A model generated the notes under the pieces. That model was not told where the DNA came from. It saw nothing but the letters and a program-made list of their open reading frames with translations, and did not search any database. 64,000 bases of DNA from Barthelona sp. PCE. Taxonomy: Eukaryota. The stretch is from assembly GCA_040285745.1 (NCBI GenBank), contig JAUFOR010000004.1, positions 806,001-870,000 of the forward strand. Reading direction: 5' to 3'. The position numbers were made by a program, and so were the translations under genes. Position 1 is the stretch's first letter; the number at the start of each line of letters is the position of its first letter. This document shows, piece by piece, positions 2,787-61,118 of the stretch.

Positions 2787-4528
2787 TTATTCTAAGTCGA
2801 TAAAATAACCATCTGTTATAGTAGACCCGTTACTTTCGAGGAGAACCTCCTTTTCTGTGTGAATAGTTTCAATAGAACCATCAAACAAAGTAAATGGCGA
2901 AGAAAATGTTACTTCAACAGGGAATAATTCTTCTTCAGTGCTGAAATCGTTTGTGATGAAAACAAGGCTTAAATCGTCTTCATTATCAACTGTTGCAATA
3001 TCCCAAATCAAAAAGTATCCATCTTCGTTCTCTTCAACAAATACCGTTCCACAACTGATCTCATCCGTTGAAAATTGGAACCCGGGCTCAACCTTGATGT
3101 GGATTCTAACATTATGCAATGCTTTGAAACGAGATAAATCGACAACACCTTCCAAACTGACCAACATTCCCTTATTTGTCTTTGATGGCCATAATTCAAA
3201 CACAACTGGTGGTTCGATGTTATTCTTGAGTAAATCTGCATCATAACGAACCAATTTGGTTTCAATATCGAGTGGGAAATTGCGATTTGACTTGGAACGT
3301 AAGATACCTTCATTTTTGAATGATTTTGAATCAAGTTCCTTCTTACAGCGTACCGAAAACATTTCATCTGGCTTATTGGCTAAAGCAATATAGGCATCGT
3401 CATGCGTGAGTGCTTCATCTTGAATGTGTAATGAAATACCACCACTAATCTTGAACTTTTCAACTGATCCTGAGTGAATTTCGCATGAAAGCTTCTCTTC
3501 TAAAGTCAAAAATGAGGAGCGGATGCGTGATTGCTTTTCTTCTTGCTTAACTTCAGAAACATCCGTAACATCTGTCATTTCCGTCATTTCATCAGGTTCC
3601 ATGCTAATTTCAACACCCTGGTTGGCCAACTCAGATAAAAGTTTGGTGTTACGCTTGTTAGTCGTCCCCTTTGTTCTCTTAAGTACAAGACCACGTTTAG
3701 GGTTGCGGTTAATGACAACAGGTGCCATACCCTCCTCAGACTTTGATACTAAGCTGTCATACTTGAGCTCAGTTCGTTGTTGACGATTGGGTCTTTCACT
3801 TTCAGTTTTATCTTTGGTTACACTTGCTTTAGTAATACCACCTGTTTTAAGGCTCTGAGAGCCGGATGTACTATCATTCTTCTTAACAGAGTTGCATGAT
3901 ATACCTCCCTGACTCTCGAAATAAGACGTATAAGCATTTTCAAACTGAGAGCCTTTTGCCATATCTTCCAAAATGGATTGCTTCATCTTTGTTTGGAAAT
4001 CTCTGTGTCTGCTTTGCATCGCCCGTTTGGTTTCGGATTCTCTCTGTAAGGTCTTCTGATGTTCCATCTCTGCTTGGTAGCTATACATTGTCAGAGCAGC
4101 TTTAACCTCCGCAAGAGGAATGTCGTTGAAGTAGCCCGTAGAGATGTATTCATCAATACCATGACATATTTTGACGCCCATTTCTGTAATGTTATCGGTT
4201 GAAACAACACGACAATAATCCCTAATGAAAGATGCAATGCTTTGAAGTGCATTATCTGCTTCGCTGTGGTTGAACTCCCTATCAGCAATTAACAAAACGT
4301 AAATATCATCCAAAGGACAATAAAAAATGCTGTAATTTTCCCCATAAACGACATTTGAAGAATTATTTGACTGCTTCAACAGCTTTGGAAACACTGTGAG
4401 CACCGTGCTGATCTGGAATTTAGGCTTGCGTAAAGTATTTCTTGACAAAATTACGTTTCCCGCCCTATTACTGAGAGCTAATGTGTATATCTAGGTGTTA
4501 GCTGTACCGATGTGAATTTTCATACCAT
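2787..4528 (-). CDS. ARCN1: Coatomer subunit delta (delta-COP), two exons: 4528-4526 and 4490-2787
   Basis: The spliced N-terminus MIYTLALSNRAGNVILSR matches the delta-COP longin start. Also YSIFYCPLDDIYVLLI, GIDEYISTGY, and a C-terminal mu-homology-like domain (EEKLSCEI...FPVEVTFSS). Confidence 0.9.
4491..4525 (-). other. Spliceosomal intron, 35 nt, immediately after the ATG of delta-COP
   Basis: GTATGAAAATTCACATCGGTACAGCTAACACCTAG. Removal places the ATG in frame with the 553-aa ORF and restores the conserved N-terminus. Confidence 0.9.
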
Positions 4529-5729: not shown

Positions 5730-6427
5730 TCAGTTCGCACTCTCAGCAATTAGGTTTTTGATACAATTTAATACAATGATATCCTTAAACGTGATCCAAG
5801 CATCCTTATCATTAGGTAACTCTTTGATTAATGATACAAGGAACTCTTGTCCAATATTCTCATCTTTTCTAGACAAATGTGTGATTAAACCCAAAAATTC
5901 TTCTTTGGATAATGCTCCTGTAGCAGGATCTTTTGTAAATACAGTGAAAATTAATTCAAAAACGCTAATTAAATCGGTTGCTGCCAAACCCAAACATAAA
6001 ACAAGGAATTCAACATATAAAACCCTGTTGACATCTACAAAACCCGCATAAGCAGCGACATTTTCAATAGTTGCAATAGAAATATCGCAATTCTGTGCAC
6101 ATCTAAAAACTTGTTCCTGTGAAAGATAACCAGATTTTGACAAATCTAATTGTTCACACGCGTTTCTGAACTTGATCAACTGTTGAGGTGAAACGTCAGA
6201 TGGGAACTCTACAAAGGCGTCCTGATCCAAAGAAATGTTTGCAAGGCGTGACCAATAGCTGAATGTTAGCATCATATACTCGGTAAAAACGTGTCAACAA
6301 CATACTTACAGCAGAAACGAAGCAAATCGCTGGGTTGGTTTCGAATAACTTCCATACTGAACGATTTGATGATTTCAGGAAGCTCTGGAGGAACAGTGAT
6401 CTGCTCTGCAGAATATATTCTGTCCAT
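5730..6427 (-). CDS. RIIa dimerisation/docking-domain protein with degenerate EF-hands (ropporin/RSP7/RSP11-type radial spoke protein), two exons: 6427-6306 and 6258-5730
   Basis: Exon 1 IYSAEQITVPPELPEIIKSFSMEVIRNQPSDLLRFCC joined to NYWSRL forms an RIIa domain. Exon 2 has an EF-hand-like LDLSKSGYLSQEQV. Confidence 0.85.
6259..6305 (-). other. Spliceosomal intron, 47 nt, phase 2
   Basis: GTATGTTGTTGACACGTTTTTACCGAGTATATGATGCTAACATTCAG. It joins two separate ORF-track entries into one continuous RIIa domain. Confidence 0.9.
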
Positions 6428-32243: not shown

Positions 32244-32302
32244 AAAGAACGTATAGAAAGGATAGAATTGTGTTATTGGGTTAATTTTCTATTTAAACAC
32301 TC

Positions 32303-34282
32303 ATGACTGTCGAACCATCAGAGAGCGTTGCACTTTTGGGGCATCTTATTGCAGACCTGCGTGATTGTGATGAAAGTGAAGCAAATGATATAGAAGAATC
32401 TATCATCGAAGTTATGGAGTATTTAGAAGACGTAAACGACGGGATCTTAATTATATCGACGTTATTGAGGGATTTTCCTGTTCAATCGACGCTGTATCGA
32501 CGATATAGCGTACGACTTATAGGATTTCTTGTGGGTATGTTTGAAACAGATCTGGAACCATTATTACGCACAATAATCGTGGAGTTGAGCTCTGTTTTCG
32601 ACGACAAAGATATCCAGGTGCAAGAATATGTTGTAAGAACGTTCAGAATTCTTATTAAATTTGCCATAACAGATGAGAAACGCAGTTATTTCGAGCATAT
32701 ATATTACATTTTCTTCAACACGTTAACAACTATCGTATCTAAACATGTACTTCCTCGTGTGCAATCGCTAGGATGCCGGTGTTTTAACTCAGTTGCTATT
32801 GAAGCTTTACCCACATACAAGAATGTTGACTATGATCTCGTTAATAAGTATTTCTGTAGCATCTGCAGAATGATATGTGAAGGTGATTTGATTGTCAATG
32901 AAAGTCTTTTAATTTTGCAAAGAATTATTGAAATCGGAGGATCAAAATTATCCAGTCATGCGATTGATCACTTTTGTAATATCGTTGAAACAAAAGGGGA
33001 TGAATCATTCTTGAACGCTGTACTTGAAGCTGTTTATATATTTTGTGTTGTTTTTATAGCTGATCAAATGGGGGTATTAACAAATTTTTCAACAGATCAC
33101 CGTGATAGAATTGAAACTGTACTTAATATGAGTGAGAACCCCCTTGCAGAGAGCATATCCGAACTGTTACCGAAGATCAGAACAAGTGAACCTGCACCAA
33201 TTGTGAAAAAAGTTGTGCATATACCCAGCAAAAAAGACAAAAAGAGAAGTTTTGTCGAACCTGATGAAAAAACTCCGTTAAAAAAGGAAGAAAAGAAAGC
33301 CCCACATACTTTTTTGAAACGAACACCCTCTTCAGTCAAATCAGCAAAAAGAAAGAAACGTAAGAACAGAACACCTAAAGTTAATGTTAATGATCGATTT
33401 GAAAACACAACCTTCCAAAAGTTTTATGGAGGTTTTCCCGAAGAAGAAAAAAAAGCTAATGTTGTTGATGATATTCCTGTGTTTATTTTTGCAAAACCAC
33501 CACCAGCCAGTGTAGAACGTTCTATTGAGAAGGAGCGTGAAGATATTGAGAGAGAGGAAGTTAAGCGTTTGGAGACAGAAAGAGAAGATATGAGAACTCC
33601 TGATAAACTTTCTGAATCTGTAATGAGCGAGAAGGAAGACGAACCCTTTGAAGATGAGTTAGTGGTGATGCCACCACAACCAACAAAGGAAGAAAAACGG
33701 GAAATAACTAAAACGGTAGAATCAAGTCAGGAGTCATCAATTGCATCATCGCTTCCTGTGATTCAGAATGATCCACATTACGTAAATACACCTGCAAATA
33801 GCTTTTACAACAAATTGCAACAGCGGGATGACAGCAGAGTACAACAGCCAACAGCCACAGTTTTAACAACACCAAGTACAACAACACCCATACAAAGTAT
33901 GTACACGCCATCAGGCGGCCAGATAGAGGTATCCAAGAATCCATTCCAAAATGACCTAGACTTTGCAACGCAATACACTGTATCGCCTCATCGTGTATCG
34001 CCTTATCACATGAATACAGAAGCTTTGCCTCAACGAGTACAACAACAAGTGAACTCGTTAATTGCGCTTGAAAAGCAAGCCATTGAGAATTACCACGCAA
34101 AACTGGAACAGCAACAAGTTGAAAACCTGGTTGATGAATATCGGCAATATGTGAAGCAACTTCAAAATACACTCAAACAGAACATTGTACAGATTAAAAA
34201 TCGAACAAAGGAGCTCGTAGTTCAAGATCTTCAAATTTTCAAAGAAACAAAGCTGCAAAATATTTGTCAAGCACTGATGTGA
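32303..34282 (+). CDS. TORTIFOLIA1/SPIRAL2-like HEAT-repeat microtubule-associated protein
   Basis: N-terminal HEATs RRYSVRLIGFLV...LEPLLRTII..L...FDDKDIQVQE...PRVQSLGCRCF resemble the TOR1/SPR2 N-domain, followed by a disordered middle and a C-terminal coiled coil. Confidence 0.55.
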   Translation: MTVEPSESVALLGHLIADLRDCDESEANDIEESIIEVMEYLEDVNDGILIISTLLRDFPVQSTLYRRYSVRLIGFLVGMFETDLEPLLRTIIVELSSVFDDKDIQVQEYVVRTFRILIKFAITDEKRSYFEHIYYIFFNTLTTIVSKHVLPRVQSLGCRCFNSVAIEALPTYKNVDYDLVNKYFCSICRMICEGDLIVNESLLILQRIIEIGGSKLSSHAIDHFCNIVETKGDESFLNAVLEAVYIFCVVFIADQMGVLTNFSTDHRDRIETVLNMSENPLAESISELLPKIRTSEPAPIVKKVVHIPSKKDKKRSFVEPDEKTPLKKEEKKAPHTFLKRTPSSVKSAKRKKRKNRTPKVNVNDRFENTTFQKFYGGFPEEEKKANVVDDIPVFIFAKPPPASVERSIEKEREDIEREEVKRLETEREDMRTPDKLSESVMSEKEDEPFEDELVVMPPQPTKEEKREITKTVESSQESSIASSLPVIQNDPHYVNTPANSFYNKLQQRDDSRVQQPTATVLTTPSTTTPIQSMYTPSGGQIEVSKNPFQNDLDFATQYTVSPHRVSPYHMNTEALPQRVQQQVNSLIALEKQAIENYHAKLEQQQVENLVDEYRQYVKQLQNTLKQNIVQIKNRTKELVVQDLQIFKETKLQNICQALM

Positions 34283-35323
34283 TCATCCAATTGTAAATAT
34301 ACTTTTGAACCATCCCAGCTCAATGTACTGGCCAACGAAGAGTGTTATCAAACCAATGAATATTGAAAAAGGCAACGCAGGTAGAGCATGACCAACTGAA
34401 AGAAGTACAACCAGGGTCAAAAAAAGACCAAATAGAACAGCAATGGCGACCAATAAAGCCACTCCACCAGAAATAATTAAAGCCTTATTGACCAAAATAG
34501 AATAAAAGATAAAATCCCCCAATCCCAACTTCATCTTTTTGGACTGGTAAATGAGACCTGGGATGGGCTCCTTGCGCTCTTCTGCCAATTCAACCAGCTC
34601 CTTGAGTGGTCCCTTTGGTGTCAGAACAGCATACATATCGTATACTGCCATTGCAAACAGCAGGAGATAAGTAATGCTATTTGGGAAGAAAGAAAATCCA
34701 AAGGCGGCCAACACTGAAACCAACACAAGTCCAACTTGCTGTATTTTGAGCAGCAATGGTTTAGACTCAATGTCTCTGACATAAAGTATTGTAAATAAAA
34801 ACGGTAAGCCGCAAATACCACATATTATTATGAGCCAACTTATTGAAATCGCTGGTCCATCGAATCTACTGAACAAAAGTGATACAACATAAGCAGAGAA
34901 GGTACCAAATATACTTAAAAGTGACAACGTCAGCCAACCATAAATAATTTTAGTATATCCCTTCTTGTACAACCAAACAATCAGCTTTGTAATGATGAGA
35001 ATAAGTGCAACAAATCCTAAAACAACGTAAACAATCGACTTCCAATCAACTTCACTAGATGACTCAGTAGAACTTATTTTATAGTATGCAGAAAGATCTA
35101 CTGTGTTTCCTGGCCTGACAAGTACGCTCAATGTCAATATACTGCTTAATATCATTGTAATGCACACAGGAATGACAACACTCATCAATTCGCCCGCTAA
35201 CGTGTTTAAAACCTTTGTAAAATCGAAATTGCCCATTAATGGAGGAAACATACACAATGCTGCAAAAAGAAATATTTTGATAAACAAATCAGATTGACCT
35301 TCATCATATACTTTCTGTCTCAT
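34283..35323 (-). CDS. PSEN: Presenilin (gamma-secretase catalytic aspartyl protease)
   Basis: AVYDMYAVLTPKGPLKELVE (YD), KLGLGDFIFYS (GxGD), ALPALP, multi-TM. Confidence 0.95.
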   Translation of the reverse strand: MRQKVYDEGQSDLFIKIFLFAALCMFPPLMGNFDFTKVLNTLAGELMSVVIPVCITMILSSILTLSVLVRPGNTVDLSAYYKISSTESSSEVDWKSIVYVVLGFVALILIITKLIVWLYKKGYTKIIYGWLTLSLLSIFGTFSAYVVSLLFSRFDGPAISISWLIIICGICGLPFLFTILYVRDIESKPLLLKIQQVGLVLVSVLAAFGFSFFPNSITYLLLFAMAVYDMYAVLTPKGPLKELVELAEERKEPIPGLIYQSKKMKLGLGDFIFYSILVNKALIISGGVALLVAIAVLFGLFLTLVVLLSVGHALPALPFSIFIGLITLFVGQYIELGWFKSIFTIG

Positions 35324-35653
35324 CACATTGATTTTGGCTTTTATCTAGGTTTTAATTACATAATATTGAATAAAAGCCTAATGTACCTACCTGCTCAATA
35401 TTTCAATTAAAAACCACTGATTTGGTGCATATTTGTTTTGGATACCTGCACTTGATCGTATTTTGACTCTTAAAAGCAGGTATTTAGTGACAATTCTGAT
35501 ATTGTGTGTTGCTCAGTAGTAAGGTAAATACTAAAAAATTTTTCACTAAAACATCAATAAAAATCACATAATACGCACATAATACGCACAAAAAGGTAGT
35601 TATTCGTTAGAAACACATCAGATCATTTTGTTAAAAGAAATATCAATTCTTTC

Positions 35654-37084
35654 ATGATGAAATTGTCTTGCCACACGTGCGTGTGGCTCATTCTGGTGTG
35701 TTTACTGTTAGTATCAGGGTCGAAAGAGTATCCCGTGTTTGGAGATACCTTTAGCAAATTTACCGTCAACAAAGATCTCTTTTACCAAGAGGCTGGTTCT
35801 CTCCACCGTGTAACAAACTGTTTCCCTTCTTTTTGCCGTTTGCTATCAGATAGACGTAATGTGTGCATTTTTTCAAGAAGAATTAACCCTGAATGTCCTT
35901 TCAAGGTTGCTGAGTTAATTGACAAGGAGGTTTCTTTGCTGAAATCCATTGTTGTTGATGATTTAATCTCACCTGAAGATATAATGGAAACATCAAATGC
36001 CATCTACATCCTTGACAGTGGTTATCGCAATTCACTAACATCCACTCCCCCTGCTTATGTTTTCCACGTCACAAAGCAGTTCCATGTTCATCAACGCTTC
36101 CCTTTGCATACATGTCTACTCAAAGGTAGCTGGCCTACGAAAATGACAATAACACGCACAACAAGGGAGATATACATATCTGACAGTGGTATGGACAGTC
36201 TCATTGATCCAACTGTGTTTGTTAATGCATTGGTTGGGCTCGATCTCGATACAGGTGATTGTATTCGAGTTTTTAACAATAGCAAATTCGTGATGCCTGA
36301 TCCAACACTACCTTTCCGATTCCTATCCTCCGATAAAAACCCACTGACGATGGGAATCCATGCTATAACTGCTTCTTTCGATGACGAATATGTCTATTTT
36401 GCCTCATTCAACTCGGACACACTTTGTGAAATAGCAATCGATGTTATATGGGACTCCATGCTCAATGCCAGTAACCATGTATCATGCAGGAGCACCTTTG
36501 GTAATATTGCTGGTCTGGAAGTATCTTGTGCAGATAATGTTTTCTTATTGGATGCAACCCACTCTACATTATTTGCAACATCACATAAGAGGGAGTTACA
36601 GCATGTTGCAGACTTTTCTCATTCTCGAATTCTCCCCCTTGATGTCTATTATGAACCAAACTCATATGATATACAAATTTTTCAGGGTAACTTAAATGAA
36701 TACATACATTCGACAGAAAAGAGCAAACCCATTCAATTTTCATTGAGTTACGTATATGTTTCGATGGCAGGAGACGGGAAGGCGTGCCTGAGCAGGCTCC
36801 CTGTTGATGAATTAGGGAATTGGATTACCAACCCTCCACAACCACACTCTTCATTCTTTTGGATCGTTTGCCTCATTTTACTTTTCTTTATTTCCTTCGT
36901 TTTTGGATGCTTTATAGGACAAACAAGTATTTACCGAAGCGTTACTAAGCTGAAGCAAAGACTGCAGTTGGCTTTTGAGAAATTGGAAAATGAGTTGCAT
37001 GAAATTAACCTTGACAGCGACATCGAAGAGCAAACTGGAGAAGTGGATGCGTCCATGCTCGCCCATATCAAACGTCGCCGTTAG
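35654..37084 (+). CDS. Yellow/major royal jelly protein-like beta-propeller with a signal peptide and a C-terminal TM
   Basis: IYILDSG, IYISDSG, ALVGLDLDTGDCIRVF and GIHAITASFDDEYVYFASFNSDTL match MRJP/Yellow blades. TM FFWIVCLILLFFISFVFGCFIG. Confidence 0.7.
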   Translation: MMKLSCHTCVWLILVCLLLVSGSKEYPVFGDTFSKFTVNKDLFYQEAGSLHRVTNCFPSFCRLLSDRRNVCIFSRRINPECPFKVAELIDKEVSLLKSIVVDDLISPEDIMETSNAIYILDSGYRNSLTSTPPAYVFHVTKQFHVHQRFPLHTCLLKGSWPTKMTITRTTREIYISDSGMDSLIDPTVFVNALVGLDLDTGDCIRVFNNSKFVMPDPTLPFRFLSSDKNPLTMGIHAITASFDDEYVYFASFNSDTLCEIAIDVIWDSMLNASNHVSCRSTFGNIAGLEVSCADNVFLLDATHSTLFATSHKRELQHVADFSHSRILPLDVYYEPNSYDIQIFQGNLNEYIHSTEKSKPIQFSLSYVYVSMAGDGKACLSRLPVDELGNWITNPPQPHSSFFWIVCLILLFFISFVFGCFIGQTSIYRSVTKLKQRLQLAFEKLENELHEINLDSDIEEQTGEVDASMLAHIKRRR

Positions 37085-37614
37085 TGGCTACTTTCAGCAA
37101 TGTATTTTTTTAATTTTTCCACTTTCGGAGCCACAACAAACTGACAGTATCCATTTGTCGATCCGCTTCGGTTGAAATAATCCTGGTGATATGCCTCTGC
37201 CTTGTGGAACAGTCTCAATGGCCGCACAAGCGTCGTGTATTCGTCTCTCATGAAAGTCGTAACGATATCGAGCTGTTCCTGATTCGAGTAGAAAATACAG
37301 CTTTGATATTGTGTTCCAACATCATTACCCTGCCTATTCAGCTGCGTTGGATCGTGTGCCCTGAAAAATAGATCCAAAATTCTTTGCAAATTCCTCTCCC
37401 CTTCATTGTACTCAACACGTACTACTTCTATGTAATTATTTGGATCCTCTTTGTGATTCGCGCTACACACAGCTTCGTAAGTTGGGGGATATGCTGGATC
37501 CTGATCCGCTGGGGATGAATACCCTGAAGATGCGTTCGAAACAAATGGAAGTTCCATTATGATAGCTTCAAGACACCAAAAACAGCCTGCGCCCAGAACA
37601 ATAGTAGACTTCAT
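37081..37614 (-). CDS. msrA: Peptide-methionine (S)-S-oxide reductase MsrA
   Basis: GAGCFWCLE, PTYEAVC, HDPTQLNRQGNDVGTQY, AEAYHQDY and GYC. Confidence 0.97.
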   Translation of the reverse strand: MKSTIVLGAGCFWCLEAIIMELPFVSNASSGYSSPADQDPAYPPTYEAVCSANHKEDPNNYIEVVRVEYNEGERNLQRILDLFFRAHDPTQLNRQGNDVGTQYQSCIFYSNQEQLDIVTTFMRDEYTTLVRPLRLFHKAEAYHQDYFNRSGSTNGYCQFVVAPKVEKLKKYIAESSH

Positions 37615-38063
37615 TTTTTTGCGGGTTAAAAATAAGTTTGAATAAAAGGTGACCTGTAAAGAAGGATAAAATTTGTATTACGATATTTAAGGGTAACCAG
37701 ATTAATAGTTAGGGTTTATGATGCAAAATTGAAATGATTTCCTCAATGAAATATCCCAGTAGATATGCAGAATCCGGAATTTGAAAAATCAGTGTATACA
37801 ACATTATCAATCAAGATTTCACAATTAAACAGTCCTGAATAACCAATCTCCCTGCTTGACATTTATCAAAAGCTAATAAACAACCTTCGAATATTGGGGT
37901 CACAGTCGGATTTTCAAAAACCTCTAAAAATGCATGTGACTCCAACCAAACAATTTCCACACTCACAGCGCCTGGTTTTTCCTACCAGTCTAAGACACAA
38001 ACTTGCTTTACCGTTTTAATCTCTGCTCTTTAATTGACTCCAGACTTTTTTGTTTGCTTGGGA

Positions 38064-39638
38064 ATGCAGTGGCCAACAATTGCCGTTGAAACGCGAACGA
38101 AATTCTCGTTTGCGTTGCAAAGGGATATCATTAATCAGTATCCATTATTGGGTGCAGCAAATTTTGAATTGACTCTTCCTACAGAACTTGAGAACCACAA
38201 ATACCTCATATTCCTACTTTTTGATAGTCTGAGCAATAACCAAAATATTTTTTTCGTAAGACATGCATTAATGGCACGTTTTGAAGCAGCTGTTGAGTTA
38301 TATTTCAGCAAGACAAGGGTAAAGCTGCTGTCTGTGGATGAAAAAGAGTATTTATTGGGTCTTCTGTACAAACTGGCATATTTGATTGGAAGTGATCCAG
38401 TTCTGCGCTATCTTGGAACAACAGATGCAGTTCAAGAGTTCATCAACCAAGGCCTTAACTGTATCTTAAAGTTTTGTTTTGCACTGCAATCATTAGGTGC
38501 ACAACTTCATGAAGTTCTTGTTGGATTTCTTAAATTTCCAACCATATTACTCAATTTATACAGTCATGGAAGCTTTTTAGAGATGTTTAAACCAGTACTA
38601 TTCAACATAATTGAGAAGTTTATGGATTTAGATCCTTATTTAATCAACGTGGTTGATTTCTGGTTATTTATCAAGCTTATCAATCAAATCGATGGTGAGT
38701 TATTGAATATTTTTTTTGATAGCCCCCTCAGTTTAAAATTTTTGAATCAAGATCTATTTATAAATGATTGTTTGGAAAATAGCTTGGAAAAGAGAAATGA
38801 AGATCATAAATGTGTTCGATTAAATTATCAATCAAGCGTCTATAATATTGTTTTGAATATATTATTGTATAGATTGGTGGAATATAACATTAGTCAATGT
38901 ATTATGTTAAATTATTGGTTTCCAACAGTGTTTTTCTTTTCTTTTGATACATTATTCAATTATCTAAAGTGTCAATTAGAGACCAATACAGAGGATTTTC
39001 TTGAAACGGATTTTTGCAAGAATATCTTTATACAATTACAATTTTTTAGTTCAAAACATGACTCTAATGCTATTAATGTAATGAAAAATGTTGATTTTTT
39101 TGCTGAAATGAATCAAAAAATTGAAAAATTAAATCAATTTTCCAACATTCAAATGATTATGTTCTATATTTTGCTTTATCCATATTCTACAGATATTATT
39201 GAAGGTTTTAACTCGTTTTTTACTCAAAAAATTGGGAATTCAAGAGAAAATGGTGTTTTTTTACAACTATTATTTGATTTAAAACATCTAGATGAAGAAT
39301 TAAGCAAAAAATTTTTTAAACATTTTGAGGAGAAAACCATCAGTTATCCATTCAATATGTTATATTATCTTTTACAAATCAATGATCTTTTCTTTAAAGA
39401 ATTAAATGGTGATGATTTTTGTATTGAGTTAAGATCTATTGAAGATTCTATCTTTAGAACAAAACTAGATTCGTTATTAGAACATATAGATAATGAAGGA
39501 TCAAACTCTGATGGTGTTTGGAAACTTTTTAAAATGTTCTTCCAGTTGGTAAAGCTGAAAGATTTTCCTATTAACCTCAAACAGAGTTTTACTCTCATTT
39601 ATAATACCATTATGAAACGTAGTAAACAAATTTTTTAG
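38064..39638 (+). CDS. Hypothetical alpha-helical protein (L/F/N/I-rich)
   Basis: Open frame of 524 codons from ATG 38064. The 3' half is very AT-rich and no family is recognised. Confidence 0.7.
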   Translation: MQWPTIAVETRTKFSFALQRDIINQYPLLGAANFELTLPTELENHKYLIFLLFDSLSNNQNIFFVRHALMARFEAAVELYFSKTRVKLLSVDEKEYLLGLLYKLAYLIGSDPVLRYLGTTDAVQEFINQGLNCILKFCFALQSLGAQLHEVLVGFLKFPTILLNLYSHGSFLEMFKPVLFNIIEKFMDLDPYLINVVDFWLFIKLINQIDGELLNIFFDSPLSLKFLNQDLFINDCLENSLEKRNEDHKCVRLNYQSSVYNIVLNILLYRLVEYNISQCIMLNYWFPTVFFFSFDTLFNYLKCQLETNTEDFLETDFCKNIFIQLQFFSSKHDSNAINVMKNVDFFAEMNQKIEKLNQFSNIQMIMFYILLYPYSTDIIEGFNSFFTQKIGNSRENGVFLQLLFDLKHLDEELSKKFFKHFEEKTISYPFNMLYYLLQINDLFFKELNGDDFCIELRSIEDSIFRTKLDSLLEHIDNEGSNSDGVWKLFKMFFQLVKLKDFPINLKQSFTLIYNTIMKRSKQIF

Positions 39639-39733
39639 TATAATCAACATAGGATCACATTTTATTACCCAAAGACAACAATTGCGAATGCGAAAAAGTT
39701 AAGAAACTGAAAAATTCTACATCATATACATGC

Positions 39734-40426
39734 TTAAAGAAGAGCACAGATTCGGGCAAAGAAACCCTTCTGCTCGTTTTCACTCTCTTCAGGGTTAGCC
39801 TTCTCAGCCTCCAGAACCTTAACACACAAATCGTGGAAAGTCTCTTCAATGTTAACCATTTCCTTGGCACTGGTCTCCAAGAAAAGACAACCAAGCTCTT
39901 CAGCAAGAGTCTGACCTTCAGCAAAGGTAATAACGCGGTGCTCATCTTCAAGATCACACTTGTTACCACAAATGATCATGGGAACATCCTTGTTCTGGGC
40001 TTCCTTAATCTGCTGGTGCAGCTCGCTGACCTTATGGAAAGATTCAAGAGAATCAATGGAATAAACGAGAATGAAACCAGATCCGGAATCATAATAAGCT
40101 TCACGGATAGAACTGAACTCCTGCTGTCCAGCAGTATCTAAGATGTCCAAAAGTACAGCGGTACCGTCTACATCATAAGGGCGACGGTGAGAATCTTCGA
40201 TGGTTGGATTATACTAGGTATTAGCTTATTATAACATTTTAGAATCTCGAAATGCTTCGCGGAACTGCTCTCATAACATTTAAAAGAACCTTCGCAAAAC
40301 TGATATTCAAGATTTTTTCTTAAAGTAACGTACCTTCTCGGAAAACTTACCTGAGACAAAGCGCTGGCATAAGCAACTCTTACCTACACCACCTGAACCA
40401 ACAATAACTATCTTAAACTGAGACAT
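39734..40426 (-). CDS. Ras/Rap-family small GTPase, two exons: 40426-40334 and 40213-39734
   Basis: Spliced sequence MSQFKIVIVGSGGVGKS...GKFSEK|YNPTIEDS...DILDTAGQQEF...GNKCD...ETSAK, ending in the CaaX motif CALL. Confidence 0.95.
40214..40333 (-). other. Spliceosomal intron, 120 nt, phase 0, with an internal hairpin
   Basis: GTACGT...GCTAATACCTAG. Removal joins the G1 P-loop exon to the effector loop in frame. Confidence 0.92.
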
Positions 40427-40820
40427 AATTGAAAACAAGGAATGAAAACGTTTTACAGGTTTTTATATTCATCTACCGGTTATAAGGAACATTAATACCA
40501 ATTTAAACACACTAATAAGTGACAATTTGCTGTATCTTGAGTATATTTTGAGTATTTTTAAAAATTCTCCCAAAAAACATAATCAACGGTATTTTGTGCT
40601 GTTTCTGAATCAATAAATATATTGTTAGCATTCAACGAAGCTGAATGCTTGTTTCAGAAAGGTTCAAACAACCCCTGTTTCAAAAATCTGTGTTCCTTAT
40701 TCATCTCTGGCTAAGTAATAGTCTGCAACATCGCCCCAAAGTGGTCCATGTGGTCCAAACAAAACGAAAGAAAACACTGTTTCTACAATTTTTTTACTTT
40801 TCACACACACAACTTTAAAC

Positions 40821-41063
40821 ATGAGTCTGACAGAGCGAATGGACAGAATAGGGGAGGTTTTCACCAAAGCACTGGATACCGCAGAAGAAAGCCTCATTAA
40901 CTCTGCAAAACATTTGGTTGTTGATCTTAACAGCGAAAAAACCAATGAGGTACATCAACAGCTTGCACTGGGGTATAATTCTAGCCATTTACACTCACTT
41001 AAAGAAGCAATGGCGTGCATAAACGAAATTGCCACATTAGCTTCTTCTGCTGCTGGTGAATAG
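40821..41063 (+). CDS. Small hypothetical helical protein (80 aa)
   Basis: ATG in an AAAC context after a pyrimidine-rich leader, protein-like composition, and it fills an intergenic gap. Confidence 0.5.
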   Translation: MSLTERMDRIGEVFTKALDTAEESLINSAKHLVVDLNSEKTNEVHQQLALGYNSSHLHSLKEAMACINEIATLASSAAGE

Positions 41064-41094
41064 TCTTCATATTTACAAAACACAATTCAACACA

Positions 41095-42598
41095 TCATCT
41101 GTCACAAATCTCTGATACTTTTTTCCCATTTTTGCGGACAATACGTACCTTTTTTGCAGGTGACATTGGTACTGATCCTCTTTGTGATTGATACCGACAT
41201 GAAACATTTCTATTCAACATGGAGCCGTGGACTGACCCGCGATGCGCTATCTTAGAAATAAAGGCATCAACCTGACCATCAGATGGTTGCATAACTGAAG
41301 TGGTTCAGCTTTACGTTATGCAAAAAATCAAAATTCCATATATCTTTTCCCTCTTGTAAAAGTTTCTCAATCTCTTGAGATTGAAAGAACAATTTCCCAC
41401 AATGACGGGAATACAATACCTTAAGTACGTGAACGAATAACTCAGCAGTTGAGCCAACAGAAGGACAAGAACTAATGTCTAATACATCAGCCAAATCGTC
41501 CACACTGCCCCTAACAGCCAATTCAACGCTGTCCAGCAAAGGTGATAAGAGTCTGCACTTGGGAGAACTACAATCCTGACTTTCATAACACCGTCCACAC
41601 TTACACCGCTTAACCAAAAGCTGCTGCACCCTCTGAACAATACTCGCAATGCTTTGGTTGCGTAGTTTATCTCCTGATATCTCTTCACTCACTAAATCCT
41701 GACAAGCTGCGTTTAACCATATCGAGTGTAAACTATCGGAATAAGCTCCACAATTGAAATTCTTTCGTTTACGCATTGAAGCAGCTATTAAAAGACGCAT
41801 ATCGGACATGGGTGCATCCTGTTTGTAACAAAATTTTGAATCTTCAACGCCACATTATCCAAACAGGAAATCGCATGGTATAGCAGAGTACTGTTCAACC
41901 GATGTATAGGATATGCTCCCGTGGTTTGCCTGAACTAGGCAATCAACCGACTTGAACATCGAGTGCGTGAACGGAAGCATGTCATTAAGGAATGAAGACC
42001 CACCACCCAACAAACACCTGAAAGGTTCTTTGGTGCTGTCACTCATTGGCACTTCAAACTCAACTGCAAAGGCTTCCTGTGTGTAATCTGTTGACTTCTT
42101 GCTCTTCACATGCGGGATAAATAATGTAGTTTTAAAAATGCGATCCCGAACAAAACAACGATAACCGTAATGACGCCCTTTTGGGAACATCCCCAACCGC
42201 ATGTGCTCTGAAGGTACACGTACATAATCCCACTCACTGTTTTCGTGAATAACGTCCCAGTCCGTTTCGTCACGTTGAATGTGTGTAAAACGAACTCCAT
42301 CCATCGATCTTATCACGTCACATAACTCTGATGTGTACCCGTTATAGCTATCGTCGGTGTACGTGTTGATTAATTCAATCTCCAGTGCTCCCTGAAGTAA
42401 ATACTCACTGCCCCACAACAATTCAAAAATCCTTTCAAACGCTATGCACCGATATCCTGTGTCAATGATCGCGGCATAATTACCTATTCTGACAACATAA
42501 AACATGTAAGTATGCTGTGTTGGCAGACAGATAAAAGATAGACAAAATGGCAGTTTCAGCTGTTCTCCATCTATCTCTATCACATCAAGCTCGCCCAT
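41095..42598 (-). pseudogene. Interrupted ComEC/Rec2-type metallo-beta-lactamase-fold gene (in-frame TAA at 41857-41855; possible +1 frameshift near 41290)
   Basis: AAIIDTG, LINTYTDDSYNG (cf. THxDxDHxxG), CLLGGG (cf. LLxGD) and VDCLVQANHGS (cf. vdxLKvxHHGS). ORFs 42598-41855 and 41809-41279 are in the same frame and separated only by one TAA. Confidence 0.55.
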
Positions 42599-43073
42599 TT
42601 GACCTTTAAAAGATTTAAATATCGGAAATTCACTATTCCCAAAGTCAGAAATGCATGTAAAACTGTCTTACTTCCCACAATCATCTAAAAATAACTGTAA
42701 ATCATCCAAAGTATCAACTGTGCCAGGTTTGCCCCCACAACAACATCATTATTATCGGTCATTGTTGGAAAAAGGTTGGAAATTGTAATCAATACTTTTG
42801 GTAACTATGAGTAAACAATATTTCGAGGGAATAAAATGGATTTAAAGTTAACATCGAACACACATAACGTAAAGTGCAATCTGTACACAATTCCGAACAA
42901 TAAGAATGGTAGATACTATTCTTAAAAGACACTGTGACGCTTCCACCGTTCTAAACCTAACAACATGTAACATGTGAGTACATGAACTAGTTAAATTGCA
43001 GGATAAGAAACGTACTAATACCAGGCAGCTTCTTGTTTTCTTTCCATTTACATTGTTGAAACTCTAATCTCAC

Positions 43074-46000
43074 ATGGAGCATTTATACCAGTTATTTGAG
43101 GAATATTCCGAGGCAAACACAGCCGAAAAACTGCACAACATTTCGGATTTAATACATGAACTTAAAGATAGCAGTCCTGACGATGTTGTAATCGGTTCTT
43201 TGCACCTTGCACGTGACAAGGATCAGGTGGTAGGTATTAGACAGACCAGTCTTTATTACCTGAGTCAATGGCTTTCTAAAAACGATAACTCAGCCTGGGA
43301 TGATCTTAACAATTCCTCTAGGGAGGAGATCAAACAGGGTCTGCTCGAGTTCGCCTCAGAAGTCAGCAATAAGGTTATCAGTATTCAATTAGCTACAACT
43401 ATTGCACATCTTGCCCGTAGTGCTTTTGCTGAGGGTGAGTGGGATGATCTTTTCCCATTCCTTGGTAGTTTTGCACAGGAAGATGACGTTGTTCCCCAAC
43501 GAATGGCTATGCTTATCCTCGCAGCTGGTGCAGCCACTTTTGTTCGTGCTTTGGAGGAAGACATTCACTATGTCGCTGATCTCATCCACCCTCTTATCTC
43601 CAGCAAGGACTCTAACGTTTGCGAATCAGCTATCTCTGCCTATGCTAACGTTGTTACACTCATTATCAATCCCGAGACTGTTTCGCACTTCGACGAGGGT
43701 TACCTTGCCTGTATCCAATCCCTAGGAGATCTCATTGAGGCTGAGAAGTACGAGTCCGCCACACATGTCATGAAGTATCTCATATCGCTGGCGACTAAGC
43801 ATCCTCGTTATGCCAAGGAGAACATTAATGTCCTCACTGATTTGATGCTGAGCGTCGTTAACGCTGATGTATATGAGGAGCTGCGTATGATATGCCTCGA
43901 ATATATGTGCACATTATGTGAATCTCTCCCAACGGAGATCAAGAAAGTTCCTGATTTCATCTCGAATTTGGTCCAGCAGTGTGTTCTTCTTGCTTCCACA
44001 TTTGAAGAGATTGAAGGTTTTGAGGATTTCGCACGAAGCGATCCAGTTGATGCCGAGGGATTCCCTCTTGCCATTCAAGCTATCGAGGTTCTTGATCGAA
44101 TCTCACCCTACGTTGCTGATGTTGAGTACTTGGAGATGATACTCGCATTATTCACAGAAATGGCACAATCAGAGGACTGGAATGATAGACTTGCTGTCGC
44201 TGATGCCCTAACTGTCGTCTTTGAGGGTATTGTTGATTTTATCACTCCACAAACGCTTCTTCAGATTGTGGAACTGGCTTGCAACCTCGCAAACGATAGT
44301 CATGTTCAGGTACAGTGGTCTGGTCTCAACTGTATCGGTGAGTTCCCGCTTCGCCTCCACTTCCGTATCAATGACGTTGCACTTCAGTTGCTCGAGTTCC
44401 TGTTTGAGTTTGCCCTCGAGGAACATGCTAACCGTATTATGGCACAGGCAGTTAACTCCATCGCAGCCATCATCCGTCTGGTAGACTTTGAGATTGCACA
44501 AGAAGTTATCGAACAGGTGTTACAGGTGTTTATTTCAAACATCCAGTCTGGTTTTGATGATACCCGTAACGATGTCGTTCTCATGCTCAGTTGCGCATGC
44601 TCAGAGTTCCCCTCCCTCATTGAGTATCAGGAGATATACGATGATATCGTCCCCTTCCTTAAGGAACAGATCGTCATAGATCACACAAAAGATTCAGCAG
44701 TGTTTCGCGGTCGTTGCTTTGAGTGCCTCACTCTTCTGGGTAACTGTTACGAAGAAAAATTCGCTGAAGATGTACCCGAAATTATTGAGTATCTTCTTGA
44801 ACTGCGTGAATTTTTCAATGAAAACGAAGCAGAAATTGAAGATTTCGACATAGATTTATTGGATCGTTCCATTGTTCGTATCTGTGATGCTATTAAGGGA
44901 GAATTTGCTTCTTATTATGAGCGTATTGCTGCTATCTGGTACCCCATCATCGAACGAAGAGAGTCAATGGTTGTCAACAACGATTTCTTCGGTGATTTGG
45001 AAGACCTTGAGCTTGATGATGGTATTGATGGTATGGTTGTTGATGAGAACAGTGGTCCTGCATTTTATGGATTCCACTCTGTTGCTTTCAAGGAGAAGTG
45101 TGAGGCTATCCGTAACATTAGCTGTTGTTGCAAGTTTATGGGAGCAGAGTCAATTCAGTTTTTGGAGAAGATCCTGGATTTGTTTGAAGAGAAAATTGAC
45201 TATTTTAAGTTGGAGGTTGCCATTGCTGCGATCGGTGGTTGTCGTACCGTCCTTGAACTTCTCATGTCCTTAGATATGGAAGACAGCACCGTTTCTACAC
45301 TCTTCACAACTACACTGCACTCGGTCACAAATCACATACTCGCTTCCTTGGAGAAGGATACCAATATTTACGCTATCCAACAGTATGCTGCCAACTTTAA
45401 ATTCCTGCTGGACAATGTCGATGTCGAATATCTTGATTATGATGTTATTGTCCGCCCTGTTATGGGTCTTTGTCTGGAAAAGTTCAACTTCATGCTCCAG
45501 CATCGTGAAACAAACATGCAAGATAGGGAGAACATTGTTATTGGAGACGAGATTGAGGATTATGAGCTTACAAAGGCTCTCTCTGAACTCGCAGAAGTCT
45601 TTATCATTAAACTTGGTGCCGATATCGAGGATCTCGCCCTTGCACTGGGTAAGGAGTTCCTTGCTTTCATCAGTGATGAAAACTCTATGAAGCATGATCG
45701 TCACTATATCTTCTGTTACCTTCTTGACTGTGTTGAACACATCCCTGAACCTTCTGAGGAGATGTTCGAGCTCCTTGAGACGATGAACAGTATTTTCGCA
45801 GACGTTGATCTCTTCGAAGCAGTTGAGAGTGATCCTGACTTTGCTCAGACCTTCATCTTTTCATTTGGCATGTTTGCTGAGAAGCAGCCGAACTTGCTGT
45901 CAGGAGATCGAATCAAGGAGAGTATGGACAACATTGTCACCTTCCTCAATTCTGAGATGGCCGATCACCCAAAGAACGGGCAGATCTACGACAACGCTGT

Positions 46001-46352
46001 TGCCACATTACATCGTTATCAGGAGTTCCTTGATGTTGATGATGAGACAAAGGAGCAGCTCTGGGAGATCGTCGCTTCAAGTCTGCCTCTGAAGCAGGAT
46101 GATCTGGAGGCCAAGGTTTTCTACCCCAAACTCATGAATGACTTCGATAGTCTTAATGATAGCTTGAAGAAGAGTATCTTTATTGGTTTGGTACAGGCTG
46201 CTGATACAGATATGTATCCTTACACTGAAATTTACACTCCTTTCCTTCGAAAGCACGCTGATGAGTTCGGTAGTGTCATTGAAGATGAGAAGCTTATGAC
46301 GAAATTTGAGCGTATTATCACATCCGATATTCGTCGAATTGTTCTTGAATAA
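43074..46352 (+). CDS. Importin-beta family karyopherin (importin-5/Kap121 or importin-4-like)
   Basis: 1092-aa acidic HEAT protein: GEWDDLFPFL, SEDWNDRLA, FRGRCFECLTLLG, YDNAVATL and LPLKQDDLEA. Confidence 0.88.
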   Translation: MEHLYQLFEEYSEANTAEKLHNISDLIHELKDSSPDDVVIGSLHLARDKDQVVGIRQTSLYYLSQWLSKNDNSAWDDLNNSSREEIKQGLLEFASEVSNKVISIQLATTIAHLARSAFAEGEWDDLFPFLGSFAQEDDVVPQRMAMLILAAGAATFVRALEEDIHYVADLIHPLISSKDSNVCESAISAYANVVTLIINPETVSHFDEGYLACIQSLGDLIEAEKYESATHVMKYLISLATKHPRYAKENINVLTDLMLSVVNADVYEELRMICLEYMCTLCESLPTEIKKVPDFISNLVQQCVLLASTFEEIEGFEDFARSDPVDAEGFPLAIQAIEVLDRISPYVADVEYLEMILALFTEMAQSEDWNDRLAVADALTVVFEGIVDFITPQTLLQIVELACNLANDSHVQVQWSGLNCIGEFPLRLHFRINDVALQLLEFLFEFALEEHANRIMAQAVNSIAAIIRLVDFEIAQEVIEQVLQVFISNIQSGFDDTRNDVVLMLSCACSEFPSLIEYQEIYDDIVPFLKEQIVIDHTKDSAVFRGRCFECLTLLGNCYEEKFAEDVPEIIEYLLELREFFNENEAEIEDFDIDLLDRSIVRICDAIKGEFASYYERIAAIWYPIIERRESMVVNNDFFGDLEDLELDDGIDGMVVDENSGPAFYGFHSVAFKEKCEAIRNISCCCKFMGAESIQFLEKILDLFEEKIDYFKLEVAIAAIGGCRTVLELLMSLDMEDSTVSTLFTTTLHSVTNHILASLEKDTNIYAIQQYAANFKFLLDNVDVEYLDYDVIVRPVMGLCLEKFNFMLQHRETNMQDRENIVIGDEIEDYELTKALSELAEVFIIKLGADIEDLALALGKEFLAFISDENSMKHDRHYIFCYLLDCVEHIPEPSEEMFELLETMNSIFADVDLFEAVESDPDFAQTFIFSFGMFAEKQPNLLSGDRIKESMDNIVTFLNSEMADHPKNGQIYDNAVATLHRYQEFLDVDDETKEQLWEIVASSLPLKQDDLEAKVFYPKLMNDFDSLNDSLKKSIFIGLVQAADTDMYPYTEIYTPFLRKHADEFGSVIEDEKLMTKFERIITSDIRRIVLE

Positions 46353-46363
46353 ATCAATATTAA

Positions 46364-49270: not shown

Positions 49271-49302
49271 AAGCGTGAATAAAAGAAAAAAAATGTTTAC
49301 AA

Positions 49303-50061
49303 CTATCGATTATGTTTTCTATCTTTCTCCTTCATTTTAACTTCTCTTTCAAATAGTTTATGGATTCTACCCTTGTTTAACCTGGTGTGATTTAGTTTTT
49401 TCTCCTTTCGTCGAGCTAATCGTTGAGGATTTAAAATTCGAAGCCAACTAATACTGAATGTGTTTAATCCCAATGGCGTAAAGTCGTTATACCAATCAAC
49501 CATTCCGCAGTACTGGAATATAAGCCTGAAAAAATTGCTAAAAGAATCTGTTATGTAATAGTACAAGCAATCTCTTGACTGAAGATAGAACTGAGGAGTA
49601 TCTATCCTATTCTTATGATACACCATCAAAAGATTGCTATTTGTCAGTGATGAGTCCAATTTAAAGCATGCAAAGTTCTTCATCGACACGCGGATGTTGG
49701 GACTTTCAGTCAGGTTTCCATCTTCATCTGTTTCATATGAATCACATAGCCATGACTCCTCCTTGGCGTTCGGGTGATACTGTTTAATCTCGCTTAAGAG
49801 ATTCAAACGCATACTACCCTGCATTGAAGAATCAGAAAATCTGTATGAAATATCGAACCCATTAAAGATAGAATAAAGGTTCCGTAGATCATCAGGAAGA
49901 ATATATGGTGAATTGTCCCGCTCCCATTGCACGAAATCAAGCTCTGTAACGCCAGGAAACAGTTGTTTCTTGATATCTTCAACCAAAGGACTGCTTTTCA
50001 AACGTAACAAGATCCCTGAGCCCTCCAAATCGCTTATTAATGCATCCTCATTGAAAGTCAT
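49303..50061 (-). CDS. TPGS2: Tubulin polyglutamylase complex subunit 2 (SMI1/KNR4-like fold)
   Basis: WERDNSPYILPDDLRNLYSIFNGF, GSMRLNLL and YYITDSFSNFFRL...G..DW...FTPLGL. Confidence 0.85.
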   Translation of the reverse strand: MTFNEDALISDLEGSGILLRLKSSPLVEDIKKQLFPGVTELDFVQWERDNSPYILPDDLRNLYSIFNGFDISYRFSDSSMQGSMRLNLLSEIKQYHPNAKEESWLCDSYETDEDGNLTESPNIRVSMKNFACFKLDSSLTNSNLLMVYHKNRIDTPQFYLQSRDCLYYYITDSFSNFFRLIFQYCGMVDWYNDFTPLGLNTFSISWLRILNPQRLARRKEKKLNHTRLNKGRIHKLFEREVKMKEKDRKHNR

Positions 50062-50222
50062 CGTATGCAACAAAAAGAAAAGTGGTGAAAATGTGAAGGC
50101 ATGTGTTTCTTGTCCTAACCGTTACTTTGTGGAGTACAACGCCCTAGCTTCTGTGTGCGCTGCAACTCAAAGAACTGTTATTTCCAACAAAATCGTTAAT
50201 TCGTATTCTACCTTTTTCAGCG

Positions 50223-60818: not shown

Positions 60819-61118
60819 GGGTGAAAAGGTTCAAATGAAGTAAAACAGATGCATTTTAGTGTTCAAACTGCTGTGCTTTTAATACTCAAAATAAATACAT
60901 TTATAGCGCTTAACATCCCAATGCGATCCACTTAATTTTGTGAAAAATGCTTGAAACGCTAAAAGAACCATAAAACTACTGCCTGCTTTTTCTCTTTTTA
61001 CAATTCAATAAAGCTCAGTTATAAGACGAAAAAGTATCTAATACAGTCATATTTAAGAAAGAATATACAGAAACAAAAAACACATTGGTATGGAACACCT
61101 GTTTACTATGCTTAAAGC

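What the first reader, a model, noticed from the sequence alone, without database searches (positions are those of the whole stretch)
40214..40333. The long Ras intron folds into a hairpin that shrinks it to the short-intron size
Seen: in the pre-mRNA, AATCTTGAA (40314-40306) pairs with TTCGAGATT (40251-40243; one G-U), followed by inner helices GTTTTGCG/CGCGAAGC and GTTCTT/GAGAGC. The hairpin covers 72 of 120 nt and leaves 19+29=48 nt, nearly the same as the 47-nt and 35-nt introns elsewhere in the window. Established: longer diplomonad introns (e.g. Giardia Rpl7a) use stems to bring splice sites together, and Giardia trans-introns pair in the same way. Inference: this spliceosome has a length limit of about 35-50 nt that longer introns meet by folding, a possible precursor of split introns. 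Alternatively the hairpin is an intron-encoded small RNA.
Basis: partly seen in the sequence, partly recalled or inferred. Interest (0 to 1): 0.7.

Follow-up and report, generated by a model that had tools for sequence, protein, structure and literature searches.

The report
Hairpin inside a barthelonid Ras intron
A 120-base intron in a Ras-like gene of the free-living protist Barthelona carries a stable internal hairpin that may pull its splice signals as close together as in the organism's short introns, a pattern already described in Giardia, Spironucleus and Trichomonas.

Summary
The hairpin exists exactly as described. Intron nt 20-91 (window 40314-40243, minus strand) form the minimum-energy fold at -22.4 kcal/mol, leaving 19+29 nt unpaired. 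The intron (40333-40214) is real: removing it gives exactly the 190-aa database protein of Barthelona sp. PCE. The organism is therefore a barthelonid, not a diplomonad. The 35-nt and 47-nt introns also match database gene models.

Support against chance is mixed. "Collapse to about 48 nt" is not special either: with splice signals held open, 97% of shuffles collapse to 50 nt or less. The interior alone is unusually stable:
- 11 of 2000 shuffles as stable
- 1 of 96 natural non-coding controls
- 5 of 1733 GC-matched windows of the whole 64 kb

The tails are also unusually free.

The idea, including the link to split introns, is already published for Giardia, Spironucleus and Trichomonas (PMC6679479). 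I rate this a probable new instance, in a new lineage, of a known kind. It rests on n=1, with no covariation, genome-wide or RNA evidence available here.

The parts
40334..40426 (-). Exon 1 coding part of the Ras-like GTPase gene (ATG 40426-40424; 31 codons, MSQFKIVIVGSGGVGKSCLCQRFVSGKFSEK, P-loop)
   Evidence: Sequence and ORF list. These are the first 31 residues of database protein P0001.
40214..40333 (-). 120-nt GT-AG spliceosomal intron, phase 0
   Evidence: Removing it joins ...FSEK to YNPTIEDS..., giving exactly P0001 (190 aa, 100% identity, Barthelona sp. PCE PCE1_001908). The product is colinear with Skoliomonas and Dysnectes Ras homologues. The other upstream donors that passed the frame scan (174 and 299 nt) give shorter first exons that do not match P0001. 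By my own reading, the GTAAGT donor 17 nt upstream would run into a stop.
40328..40333 (-). 5' splice site GTACGT
   Evidence: The other two introns have GTATGA and GTATGT.
40243..40314 (-). 72-nt internal hairpin (intron nt 20-91), 28 bp in three main helices plus a short apical one
   Evidence: MFE structure at -22.4 kcal/mol. Pair probabilities are 0.98-1.0 in the core helices.
40214..40225 (-). Fused branch-point/3' splice-site motif GCTAATACCTAG; the presumed branch A at 40221 lies 7 nt before the intron end
   Evidence: The same 12-nt layout is found in all 3 introns of the window: GCTAACACCTAG, GCTAACATTCAG, GCTAATACCTAG. The branch A is inferred from the CTAAY consensus and has not been mapped.
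39734..40213 (-). Exon 2 coding part (159 codons plus TAA stop), ending in the CaaX-like CALL
6259..6305 (-). 47-nt comparison intron (phase 2) in an EF-hand-type gene; almost unstructured (-3.0 kcal/mol)
   Evidence: Database model P0123 (216 aa, PCE1_002065) reads ...RFCCN|YWSRL... across the junction.
4491..4525 (-). 35-nt comparison intron directly after the ATG start codon; unstructured (-0.8 kcal/mol)
   Evidence: Database model P0124 (568 aa) equals M plus the 567-codon exon 2.

Best explanation
The 120-nt intron of the Barthelona sp. PCE Ras-like gene carries an internal 'zipper' hairpin (intron nt 20-91).

In the pre-mRNA the hairpin loops out 72 nt. [quoted passage not shown] The splice-site-to-splice-site path becomes about 48 nt. 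In the organism's unstructured 35-nt and 47-nt introns the corresponding 5'SS-to-branch distances are 28 and 40 nt.

The 5' splice site and the fused branch-point/3' splice-site motif stay single-stranded and free for U1/U6 and U2. A reduced spliceosome that recognises introns by fixed spacing could then treat the long intron like a short one.

Shown: the intron boundaries, the predicted fold, its strand specificity, and the unusual stability of its interior.

Inferred: that the hairpin forms in vivo, that it is maintained by selection, and that spacing matters to this spliceosome.
For: - The hairpin is the MFE and dominates the ensemble, with core pairs at p 0.98-1.0.
- It is RNA- and strand-specific. 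It has 5 G-U pairs; the opposite strand folds to only -11.2 kcal/mol, worse than 186 of 200 shuffles. No DNA inverted repeat is detected.
- Interior stability exceeds controls: 18 of 1000 shuffles with signals open; 1 of 1000 shuffles and 1 of 96 natural non-coding controls with yeast zipper-stem spacing imposed; 11 of 2000 interior-only shuffles; 5 of 1733 GC-matched windows across the 64 kb.
- Both splice signals are fully unpaired in the MFE, as in only 2.4% of 500 shuffles.
- The stem starts 19 nt from the 5' end and stops 21 nt before the branch A. This satisfies the >=10 and >=20 nt steric limits derived for yeast zipper stems (PMC12350175, passages).
- All three introns share the fused branch/3'SS layout. 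That layout goes with structured long introns in Giardia, Spironucleus and Trichomonas (PMC6679479).
- The two short introns have almost no structure.
Against: - Whole-intron folding energy is not significantly better than shuffles: z -1.25, 18 of 200; 9.4% of 500. Nor is it better than natural GC-matched non-coding 120-mers (11.5% of 96).
- The collapsed length itself is what almost any 120-mer gives.
- In the Boltzmann ensemble the tails pair weakly: mean exterior length is 22.6 nt rather than 48. At 20 C the MFE adds tail-tail pairs that touch the 5' splice site and the motif.
- The significant tests use partitions chosen after seeing the fold.
- There is only one long intron in the window.
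- No orthologous intron could be fetched, so there is no covariation evidence.
- No whole genome was held.
- The published precedent itself rests on MFOLD potential without randomisation controls: the words 'shuffl' and 'random' each occur 0 times in PMC6679479.
Confidence: 0.45

Rival explanations
1. The hairpin is a chance or neutral structure. The intron is simply longer, the spliceosome tolerates 120 nt, and the hairpin has no role in splicing.
For: - The whole-intron MFE is within the range of shuffles and of natural non-coding sequence.
- Predicted collapse of the ends is generic.
- Five other windows among the 1733 GC-matched windows fold as stably, and the most stable lies inside a long ORF.
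- This is n=1 with post hoc partitions.
Against: - The interior is in the top 0.3-1% of four controls.
- The tails are unusually free.
- The stem position fits independent steric limits.
- The same combination of features is reported in three related lineages.
Confidence: 0.33
2. The hairpin has a different job. It could be a precursor of an intron-derived small RNA (tailed-mirtron-like or snoRNA-like), or a binding site for a regulatory protein that controls splicing of the Ras transcript.
For: The hairpin is well defined, stable and about 72 nt long, which is roughly pre-miRNA size. A paper on Giardia raises the possibility that stably folded introns persist as RNAs (PMC10711314, passages).
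Against: - No Rfam family reaches its threshold in the window. The best local matches have E 1.4-5.1 and lie far below their gathering scores.
- There is no C box, no CUGA D box and no ACA triplet in the intron.
- The hairpin ends lie 19 and 29 nt from the splice sites, unlike classical mirtrons (a feature recalled from memory).
- No other copy of the sequence occurs in the window.
Confidence: 0.08
3. The hairpin is the decayed remnant of a palindromic insertion (a mobile element or a template-switch duplication) that lengthened a formerly short intron. Its origin is mutational, and any effect on splicing is a side effect that merely made the insertion tolerable.
For: Removing nt 20-91 leaves a 48-nt intron of the local short type. 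Mismatches, bulges and 5 G-U pairs are consistent with decay of a once perfect repeat.
Against: No second copy or related sequence occurs in the 64-kb window: blastn-short finds only matches of 12 nt or less. No DNA-level inverted repeat is detected. According to the genome paper the genome is repeat-poor, 4.46% (PMC11316075, Table 1 passage).
Confidence: 0.14

Closest known systems
Structured 'long' cis-introns of Giardia lamblia, Spironucleus vortens/salmonicida and Trichomonas vaginalis (Hudson et al. 2019, PMC6679479; abstract, section 8 and passages read)
   Same: - An intron-poor metamonad with GT-AG introns and an extended 5' splice site.
- The branch point is fused to the 3' splice site at fixed spacing.
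- Short introns are uniform in size. The intron longer than 50 nt has an internal stem-loop that leaves a single-stranded path (48 nt) like the short class (35-47 nt). Published values are 35-45 nt for Giardia, 40-42 nt for S. vortens and 25-44 nt for T. vaginalis.
- The link to trans-spliced intron halves is already drawn there.
   Different: - The lineage is a free-living barthelonid (BaSk clade, sister to Fornicata), not a diplomonad or parabasalid.
- The host gene is a Ras-like GTPase, not a ribosomal protein gene.
- The branch sequence here is CTAAT rather than CTAAC.
- Only one long intron was seen.
- The published cases were not tested against shuffles, whereas this one was, with mixed results.
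Zipper stems of Saccharomyces cerevisiae introns (RPS17B and others; Rangan et al. 2025, PMC12350175, passages read)
   Same: [quoted passage not shown] It has at least 6 bp (here a 9-bp outer helix).
   Different: - Yeast zipper stems sit in 300-500-nt introns and leave 42-85 nt of linker. Here the linker total is about 40-42 nt, at or just under the yeast minimum.
- In yeast there are in vivo probing and mutational data; here there are none.
Giardia trans-spliced (split) introns (cited in PMC6679479; original papers not read here)
   Same: Extended base pairing between a 5' part and a 3' part of an intron holds the splice signals together.
   Different: Here both arms lie in one contiguous transcript unit only 54 nt apart. 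The gene is not split. The stem is far shorter than what Hudson et al. consider sufficient for fragmented halves to find each other.

Membership tests
Structured long introns of intron-poor metamonads (Hudson et al. 2019 pattern) | [quoted passage not shown] | tested here: met
   3 of 3 introns in the window begin GTAYG and end in the 12-nt motif GCTAAYAYYYAG, with the CTAAY A 7 nt before the end. The strict motif gave one further hit (58953), which lies inside a continuous 840-codon ORF and was rejected.
Structured long introns of intron-poor metamonads (Hudson et al. 2019 pattern) | Long (>50 nt) intron whose predicted internal stem-loop leaves a single-stranded distance like the length of the short introns | tested here: met
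   48 nt are left outside the hairpin, against short introns of 35 and 47 nt. Caveat: 97% of shuffles meet the same numeric criterion.
Structured long introns of intron-poor metamonads (Hudson et al. 2019 pattern) | Two length classes genome-wide: uniform short introns and structured long ones | tested here: inconclusive
   Only three introns (35, 47, 120 nt) lie in the 64 kb. No whole genome was held.
Structured long introns of intron-poor metamonads (Hudson et al. 2019 pattern) | Structure exceeds chance expectation (my added criterion; not part of the published description) | tested here: inconclusive
   Not significant for the whole intron. Significant for the interior or with signals held open.
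Yeast-type zipper stem (Rangan et al. 2025 definition) | [quoted passage not shown] | tested here: met
   9-bp outer helix; 19 nt on the 5' side and 21 nt between the stem and the branch A. Definition taken.
Yeast-type zipper stem (Rangan et al. 2025 definition) | Total linker of 42-85 nt | tested here: inconclusive
   19+21 = 40 nt by my count, or 41-42 if end nucleotides are counted. This is at or just below the yeast minimum, and that limit was derived for the yeast A complex.
Yeast-type zipper stem (Rangan et al. 2025 definition) | Formation in vivo and an effect on splicing | not testable with these tools
   No RNA run was available, and there are no probing data.
Intron-encoded small RNA (snoRNA or mirtron) | C/D or H/ACA boxes, an Rfam family match, or hairpin ends that coincide with the splice sites | tested here: not met
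   No Rfam match at gathering score, and the best local E-values are 1.4-5.1. No RUGAUGA, CUGA or ACA in the intron. The hairpin has tails of 19 and 29 nt.
Split (trans-spliced) intron of the Giardia type | Two exons transcribed from separate loci, with intron halves that pair in trans | tested here: not met
   Both exons and the whole intron are contiguous on one strand, 39734-40426.

The most novel reading that the evidence does not exclude
Barthelonids are free-living and, according to the genome paper, have the smallest known genome of a free-living eukaryote. They may share the whole Giardia/Trichomonas intron syntax: a 5'-biased handful of introns, a branch point fused to the 3' splice site, a narrow short-intron size, and long introns zipped to that size by hairpins.

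If so, the syntax and the spacing-dependent, stripped-down spliceosome behind it would be either ancestral to a large part of Metamonada or a repeatable outcome of intron loss, independent of parasitism. Structured cis-introns of this kind would then be the standing raw material for intron fragmentation.
Probability: 0.3. Interest if true: 0.5.

Novelty: new member of a known kind. Interest (0 to 1): 0.3.

Why it matters
If confirmed genome-wide, this would extend a rule beyond parasites to a free-living sister lineage of Fornicata. The rule, so far proposed from a few dozen introns in parasitic diplomonads and Trichomonas, is that long introns fold down to the short-intron size.

It would also give a compact 10-Mb genome in which the rule can be tested statistically. 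The published cases lack randomisation controls.

On its own, one intron with mixed statistics adds little. My four searches found no paper describing barthelonid introns and nothing beyond the known literature. The intron syntax seen here, GTAYG...GCTAAYAYYYAG, may therefore be undescribed in the literature I could search.

Tried and rejected
- Whole genome: none is held for this window, so the genome-wide plot of intron length against collapsed length could not be made.
- RNA evidence: no RNA holder was listed. The three runs of one sample are kept as contigs and laid almost nothing on 32000-51999. The only piece in the gene is one 205-nt contig over 40011-40215, which shows no joint. It says nothing on splicing or expression.
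- Orthologous introns: a metagenome scan with exon 2 gave 17 loci, the best at 50% identity, and none was a barthelonid relative.
  - L001 has no intron here.
  - L014, a GC-rich unknown eukaryote, has an intron 1 nt away, in phase 2 of the K codon.
  - L017 appears to have an intron just upstream of the YNPTIEDS codons; I did not resolve its boundaries. These loci are unrelated in sequence and were not used.
  - DNA of the Skoliomonas homologues P0002 and P0003 could not be fetched.
- Candidate fourth intron at 58953/58974-59008 (56 or 35 nt): rejected, because it lies in a continuous 840-codon ORF and its removal would shift the frame.
- Other GT..AG candidates with weak 3' motifs (for example 35039-35253, 25269-25744, 8281-8642) were not accepted, because they lack the GCTAAY motif. 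They were not checked against gene models.
- Rfam, C/D and ACA boxes: nothing.
- Repeat or mobile-element origin: no other copy in the window and no DNA palindrome.
- Earlier findings of this scan: three look-ups, all empty.
- Literature on barthelonid introns: searches 'Barthelona'+'intron' (8 papers, none about intron features by listing; the genome paper mentions 'intron' once, in its methods), 'barthelonid'+'spliceosom' (1 irrelevant paper), and 'Barthelona/introns/genome reduction/splice' (no hit containing Barthelona). Supplementary files of the genome paper were not consulted and may hold intron statistics.

Full report
**What is there.**
The minus strand of 39734-40426 carries a two-exon Ras-like GTPase gene.
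- Exon 1 (40426-40334) encodes 31 residues including the P-loop.
- Exon 2 (40213-39737, stop at 39736-39734) encodes 159 residues ending in CALL.
- Between them lies a 120-nt phase-0 intron, 40333-40214, which begins GTACGT and ends GCTAATACCTAG.

Exon 2 used as a query returned a 190-aa protein at 100% identity, named by NCBI 'hypothetical protein PCE1_001908 [Barthelona sp. PCE]'. Its sequence is exactly exon 1 plus exon 2. The junction ...FSEK|YNPTIEDS... is colinear with the homologues from two skoliomonad isolates and from Dysnectes.

The window therefore comes from a barthelonid. According to the genome paper this is a free-living metamonad of the 'BaSk' clade, sister to Fornicata. That paper reports a 10.2-Mb, 40.3% GC, repeat-poor genome whose gene models were trained on RNA-seq mapping (PMC11316075, passages). 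The intron itself is well supported, although I could not see RNA reads directly.

**The other introns.**
A scan for GT donors combined with a CTAAY-N4-AG acceptor, plus a test of reading-frame continuity, found three convincing introns, all on the minus strand.
- 4491-4525: 35 nt, directly after the ATG.
- 6259-6305: 47 nt, phase 2.
- The Ras intron: 120 nt.

The two short ones were checked against database models. P0124 (568 aa) is M plus the 567-codon exon 2. P0123 (216 aa, PCE1_002065) reads across the 47-nt junction. A fourth motif hit at 58953 lies inside a continuous 840-codon ORF and was rejected.

All three introns end in the same 12-nt layout, GCTAAYAYYYAG, so the presumed branch A is always 7 nt from the 3' end. 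The short introns are essentially unstructured, at -0.8 and -3.0 kcal/mol.

**The hairpin.**
- nt 20-28 pair with nt 83-91, with one G-U.
- nt 34-41 pair with nt 73-80.
- nt 45-50 pair with nt 62-67, with a small apical helix above.
- In total there are 28 pairs (15 AU, 8 GC, 5 GU) at -22.4 kcal/mol.
- It spans 72 nt and leaves 19 and 29 nt free.

Core pairs have probabilities of 0.98-1.0. The structure belongs to the transcribed strand. The complement folds to only -11.2 kcal/mol, and 186 of 200 shuffles fold at least as well. No DNA inverted repeat is found.

**Is it more than chance?**
The answer depends on the test, and I report all of them.

Tests that do not support the claim:
- Whole-intron MFE against dinucleotide shuffles: z -1.25, 18 of 200 as good.
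- My 500 shuffles that keep the splice signals: 9.4% for MFE and 5.6% for ensemble energy.
- GC-matched natural non-coding 120-mers from this window: 11.5% of 96 as stable.
- The headline coincidence, 48 nt left against 47 and 35, has no evidential value. Unconstrained shuffles leave on average only 17.7 exterior nucleotides. With the splice signals forced open, 97% of 1000 shuffles leave 50 nt or fewer and 40% fall in 35-50 nt. This agrees with the general result, recalled from memory rather than from a call, that predicted RNA folds always bring the ends close.

Tests that support it:
- The native intron differs from shuffles in how its structure is distributed. All of it sits in the interior and none in the tails. 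Both splice signals are fully unpaired in the MFE, as in only 2.4% of 500 shuffles.
- Signals (7+12 nt) held open: 18 of 1000 shuffles reach -22.4.
- First 10 and last 27 nt held open: 1 of 1000 shuffles and 1 of 96 natural controls. [quoted passage not shown]
- Interior 83 nt shuffled on its own: 11 of 2000, z -3.1.
- GC-matched 83-nt windows of the entire 64 kb, both strands: 5 of 1733 as stable.

These partitions were applied after I had seen the fold, so the small p-values are optimistic. The ensemble also shows weak tail-tail pairing. At 20 C the MFE adds pairs that touch the 5' splice site and the motif.

My reading is that the interior hairpin is probably not a chance feature, but one locus cannot settle it.

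**Mechanism.**
The best-supported explanation is a zipper stem. The hairpin removes 72 nt from the path, so the 5' splice site and the branch A are separated by about 41 nt rather than 112. This is close to the 28 and 40 nt of the two short introns, and both signals remain accessible.

That it forms in vivo and matters for splicing is inference. Rivals are:
- a neutral or chance fold in a tolerated longer intron;
- a mutational remnant of a palindromic insertion, though no other copy exists in the window;
- another function such as a small-RNA precursor, though there is no Rfam match, no C/D or ACA boxes, and the hairpin ends are not at the splice sites.

**Comparison with what is known.**
The idea is in print. 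Hudson et al. 2019 (PMC6679479; abstract, section 8 and passages read) report the following.
- 'Long' (>50 nt) introns of Giardia, Spironucleus and Trichomonas can form stem-loops.
- These stems constrain the splice-site distance to that of the uniform short introns: 35-45, 40-42 and 25-44 nt respectively.
- The paper proposes that such pairing is a first step towards trans-spliced introns.

Later Giardia and Trichomonas papers repeat the idea (PMC10711314 and PMC12316389, passages). Yeast zipper stems are the experimentally grounded analogue (PMC12350175).

The present case meets the descriptive features of the metamonad pattern and most of the yeast geometric definition. The linker total of about 40-42 nt is at the yeast minimum. 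It is not a split intron.

What is new is the lineage, and possibly the first description of barthelonid intron syntax. My searches found no paper on it, though I did not consult the supplements of the genome paper.

**Verdict.**
- I rate it a new member of a known kind, with interest 0.3.
- The decisive analyses could not be run here. These are the genome-wide distribution of structure in Barthelona long introns, covariation in orthologous Ras introns, junction reads and structure probing.

Noticed in passing
window 4491-4525, 6259-6305, 40214-40333 (all minus strand): All three introns of the window share a 12-nt fused branch-point/3' splice-site motif, GCTAAYAYYYAG. The spacing from the branch A to the 3' end is the same as I recall for the Giardia/Trichomonas motif, which was not read in a call here. 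All three introns lie within the first 41 codons of their genes, one directly after the ATG. My searches found no paper describing barthelonid intron signals.
   Followed up: partly
window 40593-40675 (minus strand), in the intergenic region between the Ras gene and the divergent gene starting near 40819: A strong local fold (-23.9 kcal/mol in 83 nt) sits about 170-250 nt upstream of the Ras ATG and includes a near-perfect inverted repeat. It is one of only 5 of 1733 GC-matched windows as stable as the intron interior. Its function is unknown; it could belong to the 5' UTR or to the promoter.
   Followed up: no
window 21018-21150 (minus strand): This is the most stable GC-matched 83-nt fold of the window (-26.7 kcal/mol, a long hairpin). 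It lies inside a 1538-codon ORF (20754-25370, minus), so it is coding sequence.
   Followed up: partly
window 60893-60975 and 37868-37950 (minus strand): Two further strong folds (-22.9 and -22.4 kcal/mol) fall in ORF-free segments (60831-61115 and 37678-38033). They may be 3'-end or promoter-associated hairpins.
   Followed up: no
window 39734-39748: The Ras-like protein ends in CALL followed by TAA, a CaaX-type prenylation box. This fits the standard genetic code, with TAA as a stop, rather than the TAR=Gln code that I recall for hexamitid diplomonads.
   Followed up: partly
L014 1022-1170: An unrelated GC-rich eukaryote from a metagenome has a Ras-family gene with an intron of about 150 nt, one nucleotide away from the Barthelona intron site (phase 2 of the K codon before YNPTIEDS). 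The site or its neighbourhood may therefore be a recurrent or old intron position in Ras genes.
   Followed up: partly
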